Positions 4,253 through 34,704 of a stretch of DNA of 64,000 bases are shown here, piece after piece. Both the position numbers and the translations under genes were made by a program. Each line of letters starts with the position of its first letter. Within the stretch, counting starts at the first letter, position 1. The stretch is from a virus. Location: IMG/VR virus record IMGVR_UViG_3300028844_003737, positions 1 to 64,000 of that record; one strand, 5' to 3'. The notes under the pieces were generated by a model that was given only the letters and a program-made list of their open reading frames with translations, was not told the origin of the DNA and made no database searches.

Positions 4253-5083
4253 ATGGATAAATCCAAGGTAAAGACGGTTACACAAATCAAAGCAGACCAA
4301 CCCTGTGAGAATAAAAGACAAGCTCTATCGCAAATCAAAAGAATCGATTGGAGCTCTTTAGAGTTTAGAACACCAAATCAGAAAACATTCTATCGAACTA
4401 TTGGAAGAAACGATGTTACATTTTCAATAGGTCCTGCTGGATGTGGTAAGACATATTTGGCTACACATTATGCTCTAAAGAATCTAGCTCAAGGTAAATA
4501 TGATAAGTTGGTAATTACAAAACCACTGGTAGAAGTAGATGGAGAAAAGATGGGATATTTGCCAGGAGATATTGATGAAAAAACAGCACCATATATGATG
4601 TCGCTGTATTATAATATGGAACAGATTATCGGTAAACAAAGATTAGATGTTCTCAAAAAAGCTGGAGTAGTACAAGTTATTCCTTTGGCTTATATGAGAG
4701 GACTAACACTAACAGATAGTATAGTCGTATTGGATGAGGCGCAAAATGCCACACCATCACAGATAAAAACTTTCGTAACTCGTATAGGACAAGGAAGTAA
4801 ATATATAGTGAATGGCGATTTGATGCAATCTGATATCAAAAATGAAAATGGTTTAGAGGATGCTATCAAAAGATTTACTGGATTACGAAGAGTAGGATTC
4901 AGTCAGTTCGACTTAAGAGATGTTGTAAGACATCCTATTGTCGCTGATATGTTAGAAAGATATCAAGATGACTATGACATTGGAATCCTATCAGCGGAAG
5001 AAACCTTATCTATGTGGATAGAGAGACAGACATATGATGAACCAAAAACAAAAAATCGATATTTTTATAACTTAAGGAACTAA
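4253..5083 (+). CDS. phoH: PhoH-like ATPase
   Basis: GPAGCGKT Walker A, GYLPGD, YMRG, LDEAQN, TRIG, GDLMQSD, VVRH. Confidence 0.95.
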   Translation: MDKSKVKTVTQIKADQPCENKRQALSQIKRIDWSSLEFRTPNQKTFYRTIGRNDVTFSIGPAGCGKTYLATHYALKNLAQGKYDKLVITKPLVEVDGEKMGYLPGDIDEKTAPYMMSLYYNMEQIIGKQRLDVLKKAGVVQVIPLAYMRGLTLTDSIVVLDEAQNATPSQIKTFVTRIGQGSKYIVNGDLMQSDIKNENGLEDAIKRFTGLRRVGFSQFDLRDVVRHPIVADMLERYQDDYDIGILSAEETLSMWIERQTYDEPKTKNRYFYNLRN

Positions 5084-12802: not shown

Positions 12803-13227
12803 AATTTGAAAATTTGAAAAGTGCAGAGAGTAATTAACTCTGTATGGGATTGGTCGAATAATGAGTATACTTGAAGCTCATAAGACAATCTAATGTGAGT
12901 TGTGGTGACTTGGAACTCTGCTGAATGTAGTAGAGGTGTAACGGTCCTCATAGACATATGACACATAATGTACTTTCAGAAATAACAAGATGATTCTTGG
13001 ACTTTGTTGTGGGTAAGGATAAAACTGAAATCCCACCTTGTGGCTGAATAATTTAGTCTCAGAAGAGATAAGGCAATAGCACAGACATTGTAGTCGCTCT
13101 AACGTAGAACTAACCATCTATTAGGAGAACCAAAGTAACTTTTGGGTGTTAGGTACAAAGTTATAATAAATTCTGAGCTGAAAGTTGTAGGTAATCATTA
13201 ATCCTACATCCCCCTAATTTTCAATTT
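12803..13227 (+). ncRNA. Large structured ncRNA (~420 nt), possibly ROOL-like
   Basis: No + strand ORF. Ends pair (TTGAAAATT 12806-14 / AATTTTCAA 13216-24). Internal stems AGAGT/ACTCT, GATT-GTC/GAC-AATC, ATGAG/CTCAT, GTGGG/CCCAC, CCAAA/TTTGG, TGTAGG/CCTACA. Terminator follows. Confidence 0.7.
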
Positions 13228-20551: not shown

Positions 20552-20866
20552 GTGGGTGAAAAAGATTTGGTAACTAAAGATGCTAGACAAAATCAAAAAC
20601 ATTTTATAAATGTAAAATTAGTAGATCTAATTGAATACAGACAATCACGAAAGTGGTATGTTAGTATTGCTGTTGTAGGTATGTTTGCTGTAATACTCAT
20701 ACTTATGATTTATTTTATGAGCCAAGGTAAAGATGTTACCGATGGATGGAAGGAAATTCTCTTACTAATGTTAGGTGGATTTGTTGGTTCATTTGCTAAG
20801 GTAATAGACTTCTGGTTCAATAATCAAGAGAATGATAATAAACTCTTAGAACACGCAGACGACTAA
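20552..20866 (+). CDS. Two-TM holin-like protein
   Basis: 2 TM helices ending ..VIDFWF; upstream of the endolysin. Confidence 0.5.
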   Translation: MGEKDLVTKDARQNQKHFINVKLVDLIEYRQSRKWYVSIAVVGMFAVILILMIYFMSQGKDVTDGWKEILLLMLGGFVGSFAKVIDFWFNNQENDNKLLEHADD

Positions 20867-21519
20867 TGAATATTGCTACGTTAGCTGGTCATCTAGCATT
20901 TGGACTCATTGGTTTTTCATTCTTAGTCAAAGATATATTTTGGCTTAGAATGGTATCTATAGCTGCGAGTTTATTCTCAGTATTTTATAACTACACCATT
21001 CCAACTGAACCAATGTGGTTAGCTATCAATTGGAACTTTATTTTTATCGCAGTAAATGCTTATCATATAGGAGTTATTTTATATGAGAAGCGAGCGGTAA
21101 AGATGGACTCTAAAAACGAAGAGTTATACCAAACCTTATTTAGTGAGATGACTCCAGTAGAATATCTAAAAGTTAGTAGAGCAGCTAAATGGGAGACAGT
21201 AAAATCAGGAGAACGGCTCATAACACAAGGTATGCCAGTTCCTGATTTGTATCTTATATATAATGGTACAGTAGATGTATTGGTTGATAACAGCACAATA
21301 GCTCAACTAAAAGATGGAGAGTTTGTTGGTGAGATGTCTTTCCTCACAGAAAAAGTAGCTACAGCAACCTGTAAAGTAAAATACGATGCAATATGTTTGG
21401 TTTGGAAACAAAGAGAATTTAAGGAATTACTAAAGCGTAATCCGTCACTATACTTTACTATACAATCTGTATTATCAGCGCAGGTATCAGATAAGTTAGT
21501 AAGTAGTACAAAGAAATAG
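20866..21519 (+). CDS. Popeye-like membrane protein with a cyclic-nucleotide-binding domain
   Basis: 3 TM (KDIFWLR, WN motifs), then CNBD LITQG..LYLIYNGTVDV..GEFVGEMSF..ATAT. Confidence 0.85.
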   Translation: MNIATLAGHLAFGLIGFSFLVKDIFWLRMVSIAASLFSVFYNYTIPTEPMWLAINWNFIFIAVNAYHIGVILYEKRAVKMDSKNEELYQTLFSEMTPVEYLKVSRAAKWETVKSGERLITQGMPVPDLYLIYNGTVDVLVDNSTIAQLKDGEFVGEMSFLTEKVATATCKVKYDAICLVWKQREFKELLKRNPSLYFTIQSVLSAQVSDKLVSSTKK

Positions 21520-22262: not shown

Positions 22263-22736
22263 ATGACTAAAGTTACTTTACACGGAATACCCGTAATCGA
22301 TAGAGATTCCTTTCTAACACCCTTTGACAAAATGTTTGATGACATCATAGGAAAATCATTTCCTGAAATCAACAAGCAAGTCGGAGTAAATCCTTTTCAA
22401 GGTACAGCATACCCAAAAGTAAATGTATATGAATTTGATGAAAAGGTAGCCGTAATTGCTGAAATACCTGGTCTTGATAAGAAAGACCTAAATGTTGAAG
22501 TTGAGGATGGCGTACTTACTATAGCTGGTGAAAAGCATAACGGATTGATTGATGAAGCTAAAGCTAAAGTTCTCAGAAGAGAATTGAAGCAATCATCTTT
22601 CAAACGATCTTTTACCTTGGGTGATCTATTAGATGGGGAAAGTATTACAGCAGACTTCAAAGATGGCATTCTATCCGTAGATATACCAAAGATAGAGCCC
22701 GAACTCCCAAAGAAGAATATTGTCAAAATTAGGTAA
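22263..22736 (+). CDS. hsp20: Small heat-shock protein (Hsp20/alpha-crystallin)
   Basis: YPKVNVYE, AEIPGL, SFKRSFTL, ADFKDGILSVDIPK. Confidence 0.95.
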   Translation: MTKVTLHGIPVIDRDSFLTPFDKMFDDIIGKSFPEINKQVGVNPFQGTAYPKVNVYEFDEKVAVIAEIPGLDKKDLNVEVEDGVLTIAGEKHNGLIDEAKAKVLRRELKQSSFKRSFTLGDLLDGESITADFKDGILSVDIPKIEPELPKKNIVKIR

Positions 22737-24466: not shown

Positions 24467-24890
24467 AAGTACATTTGAAAAGAACGGTGGTTACTTCATT
24501 GATGGAGTAGCGTATATGGATTGCAAAGTAACAGGTGAGCCTGTTGCTAATGTGAGTACAGAAGCAGCATCTGTAATAGGTAGTAGGGCTGTGATGGGTA
24601 TGGTAGGAATGCCAGACGAACCTAAACAAAAAGTATCAACCGGCAGACCTGCTGGCTGGCATTTTATGAATGAGTTCGTAGATAAAGATGGTAATGTGTT
24701 TCATAAAGGTAAAGAACAAAAAAAGTTGAAAGGTACTTTACCACCTACTAAGGTGAAACCGGCTAAGAAAAAAACAAAACGTAGGACTAAACAAGAAATA
24801 CTTGTTGCTAGACAGGCTGAAAAGAAAGCTGCTTTGAAGAAAGCTGTACAACAACAGAAGGACTTTATCAATCATAAACTTGGTAAGTAA
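24459..24890 (+). CDS. Basic hypothetical protein
   Basis: GRPAGWHFMNEFVDKDGNVFHKG motif; RBS. Confidence 0.7.
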   Translation: MAKSTFEKNGGYFIDGVAYMDCKVTGEPVANVSTEAASVIGSRAVMGMVGMPDEPKQKVSTGRPAGWHFMNEFVDKDGNVFHKGKEQKKLKGTLPPTKVKPAKKKTKRRTKQEILVARQAEKKAALKKAVQQQKDFINHKLGK

Positions 24891-25528
24891 TGTTATCAGA
24901 GGACTTTCTGTTGGAAAGAGGGTATTGTTGTGGGCACGGATGTTTGATGTGCCCATACATCCCAAAACATAAAAAGGATAATACAGTAGTTATGAAAAAA
25001 GTTATAGATTGTTATCAAAATGAAAATCCAATAATAAATAAAGAACTCAGAGAAGTATCAGTAAACGAAGGCTTAGAAATTGCTACTGAACTATTTCAGA
25101 TACTAAATAAAAGAGGAGATGGTATAGGACTGGCAGCTAATCAAGTTGGTATTGATGCTCAAGTAGCTGTAGTAAATGTTATTGAACCATTGATTCTAAT
25201 CAATCCAAAAATAATTATAAAAGAAAATGAGATACCTTATTACGAAGGATGTTTATCTTTTCCTAAACAAGGTATTCATACTAAAAGATATAGAGATATA
25301 GTTGTAACCTCCACGCAAACAGACGCTAAGTTAGTATTTGGTGGCTCTGATGATGAGAAGGTAATATTAGAGTCTGTGTGTGTCCAACACGAAATAGACC
25401 ATCTTATGGGTAAAACAATTCATGATAGACAAGTAGATACTACTTATGTTGCTGAAAAGAAACCAGGACGTAACGAACCTTGTCATTGTGGTTCAGGAAA
25501 AAAATATAAAAAATGTTGTATCAGTTAG
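24890..25528 (+). CDS. def: Peptide deformylase with N-terminal Cys cluster and C-terminal SEC-C motif
   Basis: GIGLAANQ, EGCLS, QHEIDH; CCGHGCLMCPY; GRNEPCHCGSGKKYKKCC. Confidence 0.93.
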   Translation: MLSEDFLLERGYCCGHGCLMCPYIPKHKKDNTVVMKKVIDCYQNENPIINKELREVSVNEGLEIATELFQILNKRGDGIGLAANQVGIDAQVAVVNVIEPLILINPKIIIKENEIPYYEGCLSFPKQGIHTKRYRDIVVTSTQTDAKLVFGGSDDEKVILESVCVQHEIDHLMGKTIHDRQVDTTYVAEKKPGRNEPCHCGSGKKYKKCCIS

Positions 25529-28553: not shown

Positions 28554-29504
28554 ATGGTAATGAATATAGGATATGCTTGTATCAACATGCAATTGTCGTA
28601 CCCACAAAAATATGGTGGTCAACCTAAAGGTGTAAAGCCGATAACTACTGGTAGGAGTATGATAAAACGAACATTTCTATCTAAGGGTGTAGACTATGCT
28701 AGTGAACTTACACTAGCCAATGCTATGGACTTAGATAAGATTATGGATTGGAATATACTGAATGGGTACAATTTCTTTCGTATCACATCAGGCCTCGCAC
28801 CTTGGAAGTCTGAGTATGAATGGGATGACTTGAAAGATATTGAAAAGATTAGACAATACTTACACTCTGCTGGCGTGAAAGCTAAAACTCATAATATTCG
28901 TATCACATCTCATCCAGGTCCTTTCAATGTACTTACATCGCCACATCCGCATGTAGTTGAAAATTGTATTGGTGATTTGACTGACCATGCTGCTACATTT
29001 GATATGATGGGACTAAGTGAGACGCCATACAACAAAATCAATATTCATATTGGCGGTGCTTATGGAGATAAAGAATCAGCTATGAAGAGATTCTGTGAAA
29101 ACTTCAAAATGTTACCAAAATCTGTACAGAGTAGACTAACAGTAGAAAACGATGACAAAGCTAGTATGTATTCAGTTAGGGATTTGTATGATGGTGTTTA
29201 CAAAGTAATTGGTATTCCTATCGTATTTGATTACCACCACCATCAGTTTTGTACAGGCGATTTATCAGAACAACAAGCTTTGGAGTTGGCTATATCAACT
29301 TGGCCTGATGGTATCACACCAGCTACTCACTATTCAGAGAGTAGACGAGATGAACAGAAAGATGAGACTATCAGAGTTCAAGCTCATTCAGATTATGTTT
29401 TACAAAAAATCAATACTTATGGTAATGAGATTGATGTTATGGTAGAAGCTAAACACAAAGAACTAGCAGTAGAAAAATATAAGGAATTACATATGGGGCT
29501 GTAG
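28554..29504 (+). CDS. uvsE: UV damage endonuclease UvdE/UvsE
   Basis: IGYACIN, FFRITS, HPGPF, IHIGG, ENDD, FDYHHH, HYS, AHSD, MVEAKHKE. Confidence 0.93.
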   Translation: MVMNIGYACINMQLSYPQKYGGQPKGVKPITTGRSMIKRTFLSKGVDYASELTLANAMDLDKIMDWNILNGYNFFRITSGLAPWKSEYEWDDLKDIEKIRQYLHSAGVKAKTHNIRITSHPGPFNVLTSPHPHVVENCIGDLTDHAATFDMMGLSETPYNKINIHIGGAYGDKESAMKRFCENFKMLPKSVQSRLTVENDDKASMYSVRDLYDGVYKVIGIPIVFDYHHHQFCTGDLSEQQALELAISTWPDGITPATHYSESRRDEQKDETIRVQAHSDYVLQKINTYGNEIDVMVEAKHKELAVEKYKELHMGL

Positions 29505-29567
29505 CTCAGTTGGGAGAGCGCTTCCCTTGCACGGAAGAAGTCGCAGGTTCGATCCCTGTCAGCTCCA
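29495..29567 (+). tRNA. tRNA-Ala(UGC), CCA not encoded
   Basis: GGGGCTG/CAGCTCC acceptor with G3:U70; CTTCC-CTTGCAC-GGAAG anticodon arm; GGTTCGATCC T-arm. Confidence 0.95.
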
Positions 29568-29573
29568 CATATT

Positions 29574-29837: not shown

Positions 29838-29937
29838 ATAAATGAGCTTTTCTGGAATAAAAGTATGCCGATACTGCAATTTCTCACTCCATGGATCATG
29901 TAAACACAAATGAGTGAGTATAAAAAAAGATCAATAA

Positions 29938-29981
29938 ATCTGGACTTTTTACTTGTATATATGCTCAAAAATGTGTAGCTT
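29938..29981 (+). promoter_or_regulatory. Repeated early promoter, copy 5
   Basis: TCTGGACTTTTT, then TTGTAT(29953)-N17-TAGCTT(29976). Confidence 0.8.
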
Positions 29982-30007
29982 TATATATAATGAAAGAGGA
30001 AAATAAA

Positions 30008-30601
30008 ATGAATAAGAATCAAATCGAAACAGACATCAATTATCATATTTCTATGGTATATGAATTGGCTTCAAATATGGGAGTAAGTAACCCATTTGAT
30101 AAATATAAATTTAGAGAACTTCAGGTTGGTTCTATTTTAGGACATGAGGTTTTCGAAGGTGCTTCTAATGGTGGAGACAATGATGAGACATTTGGTGCTG
30201 ATGCTCATGAAGCAGATGGTTCTAAAGCTGAGTATAAGTCTGTAACTTTGGATAAGAAAGAGTTAGATAAGTTCTTAGGTAACAATGTTCGTGGAACTAC
30301 TTTGAAAGCAGCTGGTGTCTATAATGGTGCTTACTCTGCTGAAAGTATCAATAGGTATAGAGAATGTAACCACTACTTCTCACTTCATTATGGTGGTGAT
30401 GTTGTCGCTATTGTAAAAGTAGACACAACTTATGTATGTGATACTTTGATGGCTAATAACAATAAGAGAGAAGAAAAGACTATGAAGTTGATTGCTGAAG
30501 GTGCTAAGAAACTTCCAACTACTAATTGTAACTCTGTATCAGTTGAGGTTGTTGATTCAAACCCAATTATAGAGTTTGTCTATGTAAATGAGAAATACTA
30601 A
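30008..30601 (+). CDS. PD-(D/E)XK endonuclease, PvuII-like
   Basis: GADAHEADGSKAEYKS has the D-x9-E-x-K spacing of R.PvuII (GNDAVDNAGQEYELKS, from memory). Confidence 0.55.
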   Translation: MNKNQIETDINYHISMVYELASNMGVSNPFDKYKFRELQVGSILGHEVFEGASNGGDNDETFGADAHEADGSKAEYKSVTLDKKELDKFLGNNVRGTTLKAAGVYNGAYSAESINRYRECNHYFSLHYGGDVVAIVKVDTTYVCDTLMANNNKREEKTMKLIAEGAKKLPTTNCNSVSVEVVDSNPIIEFVYVNEKY

Positions 30602-30643
30602 AAATAAAATTGTATTTCAGGTATTATATAGATATATATTATT

Positions 30644-30715
30644 GCGGGTGAAGTGTTATAGGAAACACACTTCGATACCATCGAAGAGATGTAGGTTCGA
30701 CTCCCACCACCCGCT
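30644..30715 (+). tRNA. tRNA-Gly with ACC anticodon
   Basis: Acceptor GCGGGTG/CACCCGC with U73 (Gly identity); D-stem GTGT/ACAC; anticodon arm CTTCG-ATACCAT-CGAAG (ACC at 30677-79); GGTTCGACTCC T-arm. Confidence 0.85.
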
Positions 30716-30777
30716 CAAACTTTCGGCCATCAAAGGCTATTTACTAATTACTAATTGAATATTTATAGGAAAATGTT

Positions 30778-31971
30778 ATGAGTTTCACCGACTTTTTTGA
30801 CGAACCCAAGTTTGACTTCGAAGCTGAACGTAAGAAGTTTATCGATAATTTAGACTATCTAAAGTCTATGTCTGTTCAAGAACAAACGCTTTATAAAAAA
30901 TGGTTAGAGTTCAATGCTGATGTCTATTCTATGACTCAGAAAGCTCCACACTTTTCTAAGATAGAGAAATCTATTTGGACACCAAAAGATATAAATAATA
31001 AAGAACAAACTATCAAAGAGATAGAAGCCTTAGAACCTTATGTTGAGATGACAGAACAAGGTAACACTAAACATAATGAAGAGTGGACATTGGTTCGTAG
31101 GTTGATTCATACTATGGAATTTACTGCTAATCCTGGCAGAAATGTAAAGTTCTATGTAAAAGATAAAGTAACTAAAAAGATTTTAGGTATTATATGTTTA
31201 GGCTCTGATGTAACATCATTGGGAGCTAGAGATAATTTTATTGGTTGGACAAAAGATAATAAGTTCAAAGATGGTAAATTGAAATATACTTCCATCGGTA
31301 CTACTATTTGTTGTGCTCAACCATTAGGTTTTAATTTTTTGGGGGGTAAGTTAGTAGCCGCTTTAGTAACTTCATCGGTTGTAAGAGACGCTTGGAAGAA
31401 ACTATACGGGCAGACACTTGTTGGACTATCAACTACATCGCTATACGGAATACATTCTATGTATAACTCTATACCACTTTGGAGAACTATGGGTTCTTCT
31501 AAAGGTAGGATTGCGCTAAAGCCTGACGATGAGACTTATGATATATGGCACCAGTGGTTGAAGGAAAATAAAGAAGAAGAGTACTTAGCGGCTACTACAC
31601 AAAAAGAGGGCGTTGCTGGTCCTCCAACTGGAGTAAAACAAAAGACAATCAATTTGATTTTCAAAGCAGTTGGAATCAAAGCATCTGAATATCAACACGG
31701 ATTCAAACGTGGTATTTACTTTGCTGATATCTATGAAAATGGTAAAGAGTTTTTGCGTGGTGAGATAGAAGAAAAAGATTTGAAGATGAAGAAAAAGTAT
31801 GTCGAAGATTCTGATTATATTATGAAGTGGTGGAAACCAAAGGCTATCAAGAGATATAGTAAGTTATTTGATGAAGGTAGACTAAAGCCAGAAAAACTTT
31901 TCTATGGTGATATCGTAGGAACTGAATGGGAAGAAACAAAGAAAAAGTATTTAGGAGAAGTAGGTAGATGA
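30778..31971 (+). CDS. DUF4338 (DruA-like) family protein
   Basis: PGRNVKF, LGSDV..RD..IGW, QPLGFNFLGGKL, TTSLYG. Confidence 0.75.
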   Translation: MSFTDFFDEPKFDFEAERKKFIDNLDYLKSMSVQEQTLYKKWLEFNADVYSMTQKAPHFSKIEKSIWTPKDINNKEQTIKEIEALEPYVEMTEQGNTKHNEEWTLVRRLIHTMEFTANPGRNVKFYVKDKVTKKILGIICLGSDVTSLGARDNFIGWTKDNKFKDGKLKYTSIGTTICCAQPLGFNFLGGKLVAALVTSSVVRDAWKKLYGQTLVGLSTTSLYGIHSMYNSIPLWRTMGSSKGRIALKPDDETYDIWHQWLKENKEEEYLAATTQKEGVAGPPTGVKQKTINLIFKAVGIKASEYQHGFKRGIYFADIYENGKEFLRGEIEEKDLKMKKKYVEDSDYIMKWWKPKAIKRYSKLFDEGRLKPEKLFYGDIVGTEWEETKKKYLGEVGR

Positions 31972-32759
31972 TATTAGAAAATAAAGATTGTTTAGAATTT
32001 TTATCAGAGTTAGATACAGAATCAGTAGATTTAGTTCTAACAGACCCACCTTACTTTATAGGTTATGATGGTGGTAAGGGCTGGGATTCTGCTTGGGACA
32101 GTGAAGAAGAATATTTAGACTGGTGCATGAAGTGGAGTGAAGAATGTGTAAGAGTCTTGAAACCTAGTGGGTGTATGTATGTTTGGGGTACTACTAAAAC
32201 CGATACATTTTTGAAATATAAATTAGATATTCTAAACTCTTTTGAAGATATGGTTTACCAAAGTTGGATAATATGGTCTTATGATTGGGGTGGTAGAACG
32301 AAGAAAAACTTTGCTAGAAAGCATGAGGACTTACTTATGTATTCTAAAGGTAAAGAGTTTATGTTCAATAGAGACGATATTAGAATTCCTTATATTATGA
32401 AAAAAAGTGTTCGTAAAGGAACAGAACTAAATCCACTTGGTAAGATACCAACTGATGTTTGGCCTAAAAATAATCATACAACATCAAAAGAATATGCTGG
32501 ATGGCATCCAACTCAAAAGCCAGTTGAGTTATTGGAAAGAATTATAAAAGCTCATACAAATCCTCATGATGTAGTATTAGATATATTCAATGGAAGTGGA
32601 AGTACTACTATAGCTTGTGCTAATACTCAAAGAGATTTCTTAGGGTGCGAGTTAGATAAAGAATATTATGATAAGTCTCTGAAGAGAATTGATGAGTTGA
32701 CTGGTATTGGTAAGTTTACAAGTAATAAACTAATTGATATTTTAGGAAAAAGTACTTGA
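31968..32759 (+). CDS. DNA N6-A/N4-C methyltransferase (beta class)
   Basis: TDPPY, RVLKPSG, HPTQKP, DIFNGSGST, GCELD. Confidence 0.93.
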   Translation: MILENKDCLEFLSELDTESVDLVLTDPPYFIGYDGGKGWDSAWDSEEEYLDWCMKWSEECVRVLKPSGCMYVWGTTKTDTFLKYKLDILNSFEDMVYQSWIIWSYDWGGRTKKNFARKHEDLLMYSKGKEFMFNRDDIRIPYIMKKSVRKGTELNPLGKIPTDVWPKNNHTTSKEYAGWHPTQKPVELLERIIKAHTNPHDVVLDIFNGSGSTTIACANTQRDFLGCELDKEYYDKSLKRIDELTGIGKFTSNKLIDILGKST

Positions 32760-32784
32760 CTTTTAGCATAATTATTTGTAGCTT
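32756..32784 (+). promoter_or_regulatory. Repeated early promoter, copy 6
   Basis: TTGACT-N17-TAGCTT. Confidence 0.75.
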
Positions 32785-32811
32785 TAGATATAATAAAATG
32801 GAAAATAAAAA

Positions 32812-34704
32812 ATGAATAACAGAAAACCATTCAATAAACTTTTCAACAATGTTCTATCATCTGCTAAACCACCTGAAGAAAAGGGTTTGGGTGTAAGAGT
32901 AGAAGGTAAGGGTAGAACTGAGGCTAGAGAAGTTTCACTCACACCTCAGATAATTGAGGATATATTCAACGAACAAGATGGAAAGTGTGCTTTATCAGGA
33001 GCTGATTTAGACTTAGATGCTTTGTACATACCTAACAGTCCATTAGCACCATCTATCGATAGGATATCTAATAACTATGGATACCATCGTGATAATGTTC
33101 ATATCGTTCTAAGATTTGTAAATATGGGTCGTGGAAAAAGTGAAGTAAATGAAGCTGTAGCAGCTATAAATTCTATAAAAGCTGCAGACTATGAAATTGG
33201 GCCTTGGTACTTTCCACCTATACCATACGATGAACTATTCTATAAACCTATAGCTAATTCTCTTGAAGCAGCTCAGTTGGGTTTGATAAATATCTTACAA
33301 GCACCGATGGGTGCTGGTAAAACTTACACAGCATTCATGCATCTTATTCCTGAACTGATTACTAAAAAGGATGTTGATGTAATATGGTTCTTTGCTCCAA
33401 ATTGTGACAACATACCTAAGGATGAGTTCAATGATTATTTGGATGAGTGGTATGGGGATGAACGATTTGAGGGTATGAATCTTAGAAAGATAAAGATAAT
33501 AAAAGTTGGTGGTCTTAATGCAAGACCTTGGAGAGAAGCAAAGAAAAAAATTAGAGATGGTTATACAACTATATTTATTTCTACCGATGCCACTATAGGT
33601 AAAGTGCTCTTAGAAAAAGATACATATGAACCAACTGAAGATTATAAATACTTGAAGTCTTTAGGGCAAAGGTTTGCTTTACTGAGAGATGAAATACACT
33701 ATGGTTCTGTATCGGATAAGAAACTATTGAAAAAGGTTATGGGTGGTTCTGAGAACGAAAAGTATAAAGCCAGAATGTACAATGTTATGTCTGAGTTTAC
33801 GGAAGTTACTCCTTGGGTATTTGGGTTTTCAGCAACACCAACATCAGAACAAATAGAAGAAGAAGTTGGAACAAGTAAGTATCAAATAATAAATGGTTGG
33901 GTTTCTCCAAAAGATTGTATAGCAAATAGTGCTTGGATAGGTAATATCTATCAAACATTAGATTTGAAAAAGTATTGTGATGATAATTATATGATGAAGT
34001 CTTTGAGGAGACTAATGTCTCGTGTAGAAAGTAGAAGTCTGATTATGGATAAGATGGTAGAATCAAACTCAAAGGACTTTCCAATACTAAATAAACTGAT
34101 AACTAAAACTACTGGTATGATAAAGGTTGATGTTGGAAGTGATAAAGAACATAAAGCATGTTTGTATAGAGTAAAAAAACTTTTAGTAAAAGCTGGTATT
34201 CCAAGTGATTGGACATTCATTGAAACTACTGCAGATGGATGGGTAGAGTATAATTCAAAAGGTAGAGTTGAACAAAAGAATACAGGTCTTGGATGGTTGA
34301 GTGAAATAAATGATCCAAATAGTTCTGCTAGATTACTTGTTGTTGTGAATAAAGGTGATAAAGGTATAAATGTACCTACACTAACAGATGGATTGATTTT
34401 TAGAAATCCAACACCAAGAGACAAAGAGTTAGGTATTTGGATTGTTAGAAATCCATTACAATTATTAGGTAGATGGGTTCGTAAGAATTGGGGTGGTTTA
34501 TCTTTAGAGGAAATAAATTCTCTATCAAGAGAAATAAGCTATCAAATTTTTTCTCAACTAAACACTTTTGATATTGAGGTACCAGATACACCACAATGGA
34601 AACAGACTATCGAAGAGTTTACACATCCAGTAAATGGTTATGCTGTAAGTGCTATAGATATATTAGGTTATGAATTTCAATGGCAAAGAAAAAAGACTGC
34701 ATGA
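32812..34704 (+). CDS. HNH-like nuclease fused to an SF2 (DExH, Res-like) helicase
   Basis: QDGKCALSG..PSIDRI..GYHRDNV; APMGAGKT, DEIH, SAT, GINVP, QLLGR. Confidence 0.75.
   Translation: MNNRKPFNKLFNNVLSSAKPPEEKGLGVRVEGKGRTEAREVSLTPQIIEDIFNEQDGKCALSGADLDLDALYIPNSPLAPSIDRISNNYGYHRDNVHIVLRFVNMGRGKSEVNEAVAAINSIKAADYEIGPWYFPPIPYDELFYKPIANSLEAAQLGLINILQAPMGAGKTYTAFMHLIPELITKKDVDVIWFFAPNCDNIPKDEFNDYLDEWYGDERFEGMNLRKIKIIKVGGLNARPWREAKKKIRDGYTTIFISTDATIGKVLLEKDTYEPTEDYKYLKSLGQRFALLRDEIHYGSVSDKKLLKKVMGGSENEKYKARMYNVMSEFTEVTPWVFGFSATPTSEQIEEEVGTSKYQIINGWVSPKDCIANSAWIGNIYQTLDLKKYCDDNYMMKSLRRLMSRVESRSLIMDKMVESNSKDFPILNKLITKTTGMIKVDVGSDKEHKACLYRVKKLLVKAGIPSDWTFIETTADGWVEYNSKGRVEQKNTGLGWLSEINDPNSSARLLVVVNKGDKGINVPTLTDGLIFRNPTPRDKELGIWIVRNPLQLLGRWVRKNWGGLSLEEINSLSREISYQIFSQLNTFDIEVPDTPQWKQTIEEFTHPVNGYAVSAIDILGYEFQWQRKKTA

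What the first reader, a model, noticed from the sequence alone, without database searches (positions are those of the whole stretch)
30644..30715. tRNA-Gly with an A34 (ACC) anticodon, plus A8/U14 swap and A32-U38
Seen: clear Gly identity elements but anticodon ACC. The near-invariant U8/A14 pair is inverted to A8/U14, positions 32/38 can pair (A-U), and the T-stem has one mismatch. Known: in bacteria A34 tRNAs are almost confined to Arg(ACG) edited by TadA, and tRNA-Gly(ACC) is essentially absent from cellular genomes. GGT looks like a dominant Gly codon here. Inference: a codon-tuned or anticodon-nuclease-evading tRNA, or a non-translational Gly donor. The compensatory A8/U14 change argues against simple decay.
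Basis: partly seen in the sequence, partly recalled or inferred. Interest (0 to 1): 0.75.

Follow-up and report, generated by a model that had tools for sequence, protein, structure and literature searches.

The report
Phage glycine tRNA newly mutated to ACC
A widespread ocean phage carries a real glycine tRNA whose anticodon changed very recently, by one base, from the usual UCC to ACC, an anticodon that reviews call missing from all life; the unchanged twin still circulates, so nature offers a matched pair for testing why cells avoid it.

Summary
Window 30644-30715 (+) is a tRNA-Gly with anticodon ACC (ARAGORN; Rfam 49.9 bits against a cut-off of 29). The A at 30677 is not an error: the main contigs of four independent marine metagenome studies span it with no difference. 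ACC is not a trait of this tRNA family. Among 18 distinct family sequences from about 30 contigs, 16 read TCC. One contig (L070) matches the window over 794 nt, including the whole tRNA, except at the wobble base. A8/U14 is found in every copy. The pairable 32-38 is also family-wide and covaries (A/U or U/A). The T-stem mismatch is shared with TCC copies. None of these three features goes with ACC. A second ACC copy (L074) sits on a different tRNA body and phage background, so ACC either arose twice or has persisted. GGT is 52 % of Gly codons, but TCC carriers show the same usage. Most likely (about 0.5) this is a still-charged tRNA that now reads GGU with unmodified A34. The main rival (about 0.35) is a tolerated, nearly neutral change in a dispensable tRNA. 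I found no support for nuclease evasion or for a non-ribosomal glycine donor. This scan has noted tRNA-Gly(ACC) before in other phage genomes. I confirmed one case myself: an unannotated copy in Pelagibacter phage HTVC008M.

The parts
30644..30715 (+). tRNA-Gly gene, anticodon ACC, 72 nt up to discriminator U73; CCA is not encoded
   Evidence: ARAGORN; Rfam 49.9 bits; family model R1 100 bits; 13 of 21 stem pairs covary across the family
30677..30679 (+). Anticodon ACC. Base 30677 is the wobble position A34, which is T in 16 of 18 distinct family sequences
   Evidence: A confirmed in contigs of four independent studies; the only difference from L070 across 29926-30719
30610..30617 (+). Conserved TTGTATTT box about 34 nt upstream of the tRNA (-35-like)
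   Evidence: Present at a fixed distance in all 27 distinct flanks, including both ACC carriers. The sigma-70 consensus scan did not call it, so the promoter role is inferred from conservation.
30633..30643 (+). Conserved AT-rich TATATATTATT running up to tRNA position 1 (-10-like)
30725..30743 (+). Small GC hairpin (GGCC...GGCT) followed by ATTTA, a possible terminator or processing site
   Evidence: Conserved position with compensatory stem changes in relatives, e.g. GACC...GGTT in L080
30716..30720 (.). Recombination breakpoint relative to L070: one difference in the 794 nt before it, about 30 % divergence after it
30778..31971 (+). Downstream neighbour, a DruA-family (PF14236) protein; it was used to find relatives and to build the tree

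Best explanation
This is a working tRNA-Gly gene in its own small transcription unit, in an uncultured, globally distributed marine T4-like myovirus of about 33 % GC whose host is unknown. It belongs to a phage-only tRNA-Gly family with an A8/U14 core, and that family's normal anticodon is UCC. In this strain one recent T->A transversion at the wobble base made it ACC. Shown: the gene and the base are real; the change is derived and recent; all Gly identity elements, the elbow and the flanking signals are intact; ACC also sits on a second, different background (L074). Inferred: the tRNA is still charged by the host GlyRS, because position 34 is not an identity element. A34 stays unmodified, because TadA is specific for the ACG loop. 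The tRNA now reads GGU by Watson-Crick pairing, reads GGC and GGG weakly, and no longer serves GGA well. This shifts the phage's private supply from its second most used Gly codon (GGA, 35 %) to its most used (GGU, 52 %). The Gly box is four-fold degenerate, so loose reading by A34 cannot cause miscoding.
For: The gene and base are real. The family is under structural selection: 99 % of cells are paired, 13 of 21 pairs have double changes, and 0 of 500 shuffles reach this. The change is derived and recent: L070 is identical over 794 nt except at 30677, and 16 of 18 distinct sequences read TCC. Within the loop, U33, C35, C36 and A37 never vary, and position 34 varies only to A, in two backgrounds. 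The neighbour-gene tree rejects the two ACC carriers as one clade (lnL difference 165, p-AU 8e-40). The conserved upstream box and downstream hairpin are intact in both ACC carriers. The predicted fold is unchanged. GGT makes up 52 % of Gly codons. The strain is held by 18 runs from 10 studies, and the four runs laid are dated 2014-2025. [quoted passage not shown] An ACC tRNA was not deaminated by E. coli TadA and read GGU > GGC ~ GGG (PMC11066159). [quoted passage not shown] An unrelated tRNA-Gly(ACC) is the only tRNA of the cultured phage HTVC008M, whose sampled genes use GGT for 65-78 % of Gly codons.
Against: Most of the family keeps UCC although every member prefers GGT, so UCC is what selection usually favours. 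The window's allele is too young to show retention: there are no other changes in 794 nt. L074 has an extra C.U mismatch in its T-stem, which could mean relaxed constraint. More distant relatives have no tRNA at this spot, so it is dispensable in some backgrounds. There are no data on expression, charging or modification. The contig is only about 40 % of the genome, so a second tRNA-Gly could exist. Molecular dynamics in PMC4928997 suggests that A34 distorts tRNA-Gly anticodon loops.
Confidence: 0.5

Rival explanations
1. A nearly neutral or mildly harmful wobble mutation in a dispensable accessory tRNA, which spread by hitch-hiking with a successful phage genotype. It could be the first step towards loss of the gene, with no new decoding role selected.
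For: The allele is very young. 16 of 18 variants keep UCC. Distant relatives lack the tRNA. L074, the other ACC copy, has an additional T-stem mismatch. Codon usage does not differ between ACC and TCC carriers.
Against: The only change ever seen in the otherwise invariant loop core is T->A at position 34, and it sits on two backgrounds. The strain is abundant in many independent samples. No other damage has occurred in the window's copy. ACC also occurs in an unrelated phage tRNA-Gly family.
Confidence: 0.35
2. Escape from a host defence that cuts or inactivates tRNA-Gly(UCC) by recognising U34 or its modification. On this view the A34 copy survives attack and reads Gly codons loosely.
For: Phage tRNAs with altered anticodon loops that resist anticodon nucleases are an established theme (general knowledge). 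Boren 1993 reported that ACC competes at GGA and GGG in vitro (cited in PMC11066159).
Against: I know of no nuclease specific for tRNA-Gly(UCC). The window encodes no RNA ligase and only the HAD phosphatase domain of PNKP. In vivo, an ACC tRNA showed no detectable reading of GGA (PMC11066159).
Confidence: 0.07
3. A glycine carrier used outside the ribosome, for example for cell-wall or DNA modification chemistry, so that the anticodon does not matter.
For: Position 34 would be free to drift. The tRNA always sits just upstream of a DruA-family gene and a DNA methylase in the close relatives.
Against: G18G19 and the T-loop TTCGA are canonical, and U33, C35, C36 and A37 are invariant. That is what ribosomal use and GlyRS recognition would conserve. 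The neighbour gene occurs without the tRNA in about 40 more distant relatives. No Fem-like or Mom-like gene was found.
Confidence: 0.03
4. A sequencing or assembly error at 30677.
For: It is a single-base difference from a common sequence.
Against: Contigs from four independent studies carry the A at depth 10-23.
Confidence: 0.01

Closest known systems
The same tRNA with anticodon UCC in sister phages (L003-type body; L070 haplotype)
   Same: Identical 72-nt body, identical promoter-like box, and for L070 an identical 700 nt upstream
   Different: Only the wobble base differs: U34 there, A34 here
T4-type phage tRNA-Gly(UCC), e.g. the second tRNA-Gly in L015 at 1497-1568
   Same: Phage-borne elongator tRNA-Gly with the same identity elements
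   Different: Canonical U8/A14 and a different D-arm; it scores only 58 bits on the family model, against 95-104 bits for family members
Engineered E. coli tRNA-Gly1(ACC) (Boren et al. 1993, cited in PMC11066159 and PMC4928997)
   Same: U/C34->A in a bacterial-type tRNA-Gly. It is active in elongation, reads GGU best, and A34 stays unmodified
   Different: A laboratory construct; the window's copy is a natural allele that has spread in the ocean
Unannotated tRNA-Gly(ACC) of Pelagibacter phage HTVC008M (KC465899.1:91140-91213)
   Same: Marine T4-like phage with about 33 % GC and GGT-rich genes; anticodon ACC; the only tRNA of that phage
   Different: An unrelated tRNA body: U8/A14, no GG in the D-loop, T-loop AGCGTTA, encoded CCA, loop U32/A38
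Mollicutes tRNA-Thr(AGU) with unmodified A34 (cited in PMC11066159)
   Same: A natural A34 tRNA in a four-fold codon box of an AT-rich genome, thought to be unmodified
   Different: A cellular gene for a different amino acid, and fixed in its lineage
Bacterial tRNA-Arg(ACG) with TadA (I34)
   Same: A34 is encoded in the gene
   Different: The loop is not the ACG loop that TadA needs, and no deaminase gene lies in the window, so I34 is not expected

Membership tests
Bacterial-type elongator tRNA (Rfam RF00005) | Cloverleaf scoring above the gathering threshold | tested here: met
   49.9 bits against 29; ARAGORN agrees
tRNA-Gly (bacterial GlyRS identity set; established knowledge) | G1-C72, C2-G71, G3-C70, U73, C35, C36 | tested here: met
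   All read directly from the sequence and invariant across the family
tRNA-Gly | Actually charged with glycine | not testable with these tools
   Needs an aminoacylation assay or charged-tRNA sequencing
Canonical tRNA core | U8-A14 reverse-Hoogsteen pair | tested here: not met
   A8/U14 in the window and in 23 relatives that were found without using these positions. U14 could also pair with A21.
Canonical tRNA elbow | G18G19 with T54-Psi55-C56 | tested here: met
   GG in the D-loop and TTCGA in the T-loop
TadA-dependent I34 tRNAs (tRNA-Arg ACG type) | Anticodon loop of the ACG type recognised by TadA | tested here: not met
   The loop is AUACCAU. E. coli TadA left an ACC tRNA unmodified (PMC11066159).
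TadA-dependent I34 tRNAs | A phage-borne deaminase that could do the job | tested here: not met
   Pfam found no deaminase family in the 49 larger ORFs scanned. About 60 % of the genome is not available.
Non-ribosomal glycine-donor tRNAs (staphylococcal type; recalled from memory) | Loss of G18G19 and the T-Psi-C signature, and a T-stem that binds EF-Tu weakly | tested here: not met
   The elbow is canonical. One T-stem mismatch exists, but it varies within the family.
HTVC008M-type phage tRNA-Gly(ACC) | Shared body: odd elbow, U8/A14, encoded CCA | tested here: not met
   Different D-arm, T-arm and 3' end. BLAST of either tRNA against GenBank phages does not find the other.

The most novel reading that the evidence does not exclude
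ACC is a recurrent, selected solution in AT-rich marine phages. The anticodon that reviews call 'universally missing' evolves repeatedly from UCC, at least twice within this family and separately in the HTVC008M type, to read the phages' dominant GGU codon with an unmodified A34. On this view the window catches the one-step transition while both alleles still circulate on an identical tRNA body.
Probability: 0.4. Interest if true: 0.75.

Novelty: new variant of a known kind. Interest (0 to 1): 0.6.

Why it matters
Reviews list tRNA-Gly(ACC) among eight tRNA genes missing from all life, and say that phages lack it too (PMC8007984). Why A34 is avoided in the glycine box is an open question (PMC4928997). 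Here a natural ACC allele has spread through ocean samples, and its UCC twin, identical in body and in about 700 nt upstream of the tRNA, still exists. That gives a ready-made isogenic pair for testing charging, modification, decoding and fitness. It also shows that a phage tRNA can change its decoding target by one mutation, and that phage tRNA genes sit at recombination junctions.

Tried and rejected
1. ACC-specific scans of IMG/VR for three versions of the anticodon arm gave 30 hits. Apart from L074, none was a family tRNA: they were coding-sequence matches or the antisense strand of tRNA-Thr(GGT).
2. L119, L121 and L122, from the D-arm pattern scans, were chance matches.
3. I looked for hidden or degenerate tRNAs at the syntenic spot in distant relatives. 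The family model and permissive Rfam found none; they found tmRNAs there instead.
4. I scanned for L074's tRNA body carrying TCC, to separate independent mutation from transfer. That body is unique, so the question stays open.
7. The sigma-70 consensus scan did not call a + strand promoter. The promoter role rests on conservation alone.
8. A literature search for 'A8-U14' found nothing.
9. The weak Rfam hits to skipping-rope RNA and to the tymovirus tRNA-like element are below threshold and merely reflect the tRNA shape.
10. The weak tRNA hit in phage Mosig is coding sequence.
11. Host assignment failed: PhoH and the DruA-like gene give only 31-41 % identity to cultured phages.
12. The collection scans are not exhaustive. 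The 165 kb contig behind L016 was missed by the D-arm patterns, and records close to the window may be hidden, so the counts are lower bounds.

Full report
WHAT IS THERE. The window is the first 64 kb of a 74.4 kb IMG/VR viral contig that CheckV estimates at about 40 % complete. It has 33 % GC and nearly all genes lie on the + strand. ARAGORN finds two tRNAs: Ala(UGC) at 29495-29568 and Gly(ACC) at 30644-30716. Rfam's tRNA model scores the Gly gene at 49.9 bits against a cut-off of 29.

Read directly from the sequence, the gene has these features:
- G1-C72, C2-G71, G3-C70, U73, C35 and C36, which are the bacterial glycine identity set.
- A8 and U14 in place of the usual U8 and A14.
- An anticodon loop reading A32-U33-A34-C35-C36-A37-U38.
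- A 4-nt variable loop and one A.C mismatch in the T-stem.
- A canonical elbow (G18G19 and TTCGA), and no encoded CCA.

IS THE A REAL? The 1.7 kb around the gene is held almost word for word by 18 marine metagenome runs from 10 studies. I laid the Logan contigs of four runs from four different studies on it, leaving out the likely source sample. In each run the main contig (k-mer depth 10.7-23) spans 30677 with zero differences. A minor contig in one run (depth 3.8) carries T together with a second change and a different upstream flank, so it comes from a co-occurring relative. The A is therefore a real, geographically and temporally widespread allele, shown at contig level. Raw reads were not examined.

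THE FAMILY. I searched for relatives in three ways, none of which looked at the anticodon:
- by the neighbouring DruA-like gene (then ARAGORN);
- by tRNA patterns with the anticodon left free, in IMG/VR;
- by a pattern with the wobble base left free, in JGI and ENA metagenomes.

Together these give 18 distinct sequences of one tRNA family on about 30 contigs. No GenBank phage and no prokaryote reference genome carries the family.

On the cloverleaf, 99 % of cells are paired and 13 of 21 pairs show compensatory double changes. None of 500 shuffles and no slid register comes close. This is a tRNA under structural selection.

In every copy a fixed TTGTATTT box lies about 34 nt upstream, an AT-rich TATATATTATT runs up to position 1, and a small GC hairpin followed by ATTTA lies downstream. 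The hairpin stem has compensatory changes. That looks like a dedicated transcription unit. In a 165 kb relative (79 % complete) this is the only tRNA.

WHICH ODD FEATURES GO WITH ACC? None of them.
- A8 and U14 are present in all 23 relatives that were found without using those positions, and all of those read TCC.
- Positions 32 and 38 covary: nine sequences have A/U and nine have U/A. A pairable 32-38 is a known tuning element of tRNA-Gly decoding (PMC10853795).
- The A.C mismatch in the T-stem is shared with the TCC copies of L003 type and with L004. Other members have A-U, U-A or G-C at that pair.

Within the loop, U33, C35, C36 and A37 never vary. Position 34 is U in 16 sequences and A in 2, and never C or G.

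HOW OLD IS THE CHANGE? Seven contigs carry exactly the window's tRNA body with TCC. One of them, L070 from an ENA assembly, is identical to the window from 29926 to 30719. That is 794 nt including the whole tRNA, and the single exception is 30677. From 30720 onward the two diverge at about 30 %. So the T->A change is a very recent point mutation on an otherwise identical haplotype. The 3' end of the tRNA is also a recombination junction.

A SECOND ACC COPY. L074, from a different sample, reads ACC on a different body: the acceptor pair 5-68, position 26 and two T-stem pairs differ, and it has its own C.U mismatch.

On the neighbouring gene the window groups with the TCC carriers L005, L066 and L067 (support 100/100). 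L074 groups with the TCC carrier L015 (100/99). Forcing the two ACC carriers together costs 165 log-likelihood units (p-AU 8e-40).

There is a caveat. The window's tRNA body matches phages that lie elsewhere on that tree, so the tRNA recombines independently of its neighbour. Transfer of the 17-nt anticodon arm, which is identical in the two ACC copies, cannot be excluded. L074's body was not found with TCC. Either way ACC sits on two backgrounds, by repeated mutation or by persistence and spread.

WHAT IT PROBABLY DOES.
- Charging should be unaffected. [quoted passage not shown] A human tRNA-Gly changed to ACC is charged well (PMC4928997).
- Inosine is unlikely. TadA is highly specific for the ACG loop, and an ACC tRNA was not deaminated in E. 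coli (PMC11066159). Pfam found no deaminase, RNA ligase or tRNA-modifying enzyme in 49 ORFs of the window.
- An unmodified A34 reads U best. An E. coli tRNA-Gly(ACC) decoded GGU strongly and GGC weakly in vitro (Boren 1993, as cited in PMC11066159). In vivo an ACC tRNA read GGU > GGC ~ GGG, with GGA below detection (PMC11066159).
- The window uses GGT for 52 % and GGA for 35 % of Gly codons.

The mutation would therefore move the phage's private tRNA from its second-ranked codon to its first. The Gly box is four-fold degenerate, so loose wobble cannot cause miscoding. The predicted fold is unchanged.

WHY THIS IS NOT CERTAIN.
- Every TCC carrier has the same codon preference (GGT 50-64 %), so UCC is the state that selection normally keeps.
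- The window's allele is too young to show retention.
- L074 has an extra stem mismatch.
- About 40 more distant relatives have the neighbour gene but no tRNA, so the tRNA is dispensable in some backgrounds.

A tolerated, hitch-hiking change is a serious rival (0.35, against 0.5 for a functional shift). Nuclease evasion (0.07) has no specific support. The 'Pnk-like' gene is only a HAD phosphatase domain, the 'endonuclease' is UvdE, and no RNA ligase is present. A non-ribosomal donor (0.03) is contradicted by the canonical elbow and the invariant loop core.

COMPARISON WITH WHAT IS KNOWN. Reviews count tRNA-Gly(ACC) among eight universally missing tRNA genes and state that phage tRNA sets lack the same genes (PMC8007984). 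Earlier notes of this scan report ACC glycine tRNAs in other phage genomes (41 notes in at least 29 genomes). I treated those notes as leads and tested one claim myself. Pelagibacter phage HTVC008M has a single tRNA, which ARAGORN calls Gly(ACC) and Rfam scores at 49.5 bits. It lies between cobS and the S21 gene at KC465899.1:91140-91213 and has no tRNA feature in the GenBank record. A published survey lists that phage as having 0 tRNAs (PMC7029224, Table 1). Its body is unrelated to the window's family, with an odd elbow, U8/A14 and an encoded CCA. So ACC occurs in at least two separate tRNA-Gly families of marine T4-like phages.

VERDICT. This is a new variant of a known kind: an ordinary phage tRNA-Gly(UCC) family in which a 'forbidden' anticodon has just arisen and spread. 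Its particular value is that the isogenic UCC twin still circulates.

Noticed in passing
L018 2006-2410, L019 1985-2428, L021 1986-2408, L022 1962-2374; also L003 9385-9792 and L074 11819-12225 (-): Relatives of this phage carry a full-length tmRNA (Rfam 82-102 bits for L018-L022; ARAGORN tags ending in ...YAYA or ...YAYAA) a few hundred to about 1,400 nt upstream of the tRNA-Gly or the DruA-like gene. The window, L005, L067 and L071 have a tRNA-Ala(UGC) in that region and no tmRNA.
   Followed up: partly
KC465899.1:91140-91213 (L126 1501-1574): Pelagibacter phage HTVC008M has an unannotated tRNA-Gly(ACC) between cobS and the S21 gene, with a D-loop lacking GG and a T-loop AGCGTTA. A published table lists this phage as having 0 tRNAs (PMC7029224).
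   Followed up: partly
window 13008-13212 (+): A manA RNA motif (RF01745) scores 69.3 bits, above its gathering score, in a gene-free gap.
   Followed up: no
window 30716-30720: There is a sharp mosaic junction at the 3' end of the tRNA. L070 is identical upstream and about 30 % diverged downstream, while the window's downstream side resembles L066 and L067. The tRNA gene appears to act as a recombination joint between phages.
   Followed up: partly
window 30653-30668: ViennaRNA pairs U14 with A21, giving a 5-bp D-stem and a 6-nt loop in all family members tested. The A8/U14 'swap' may therefore be a re-wired core rather than a simple inversion of the U8-A14 pair.
   Followed up: no
L015 1497-1568 and 2877-2949: One relative carries two tRNA-Gly(UCC) genes 1.3 kb apart: a T4-type copy with canonical U8/A14 and the A8/U14 family copy.
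   Followed up: no
window 30778-34704: A DruA-family gene (PF14236) overlaps the start of an N6/N4 DNA methylase and is followed by a protein with HNH-endonuclease (PHROGs) and ResIII (Pfam) matches. This is a Druantia component in a lytic-type phage.
   Followed up: no
window 24890-25528, 22263-22736, 4253-5083, 20866-21519: Auxiliary genes: a peptide deformylase with a SEC-C motif, HSP20, PhoH, and a Popeye-like cNMP-binding membrane protein next to the GH108 endolysin.
   Followed up: no
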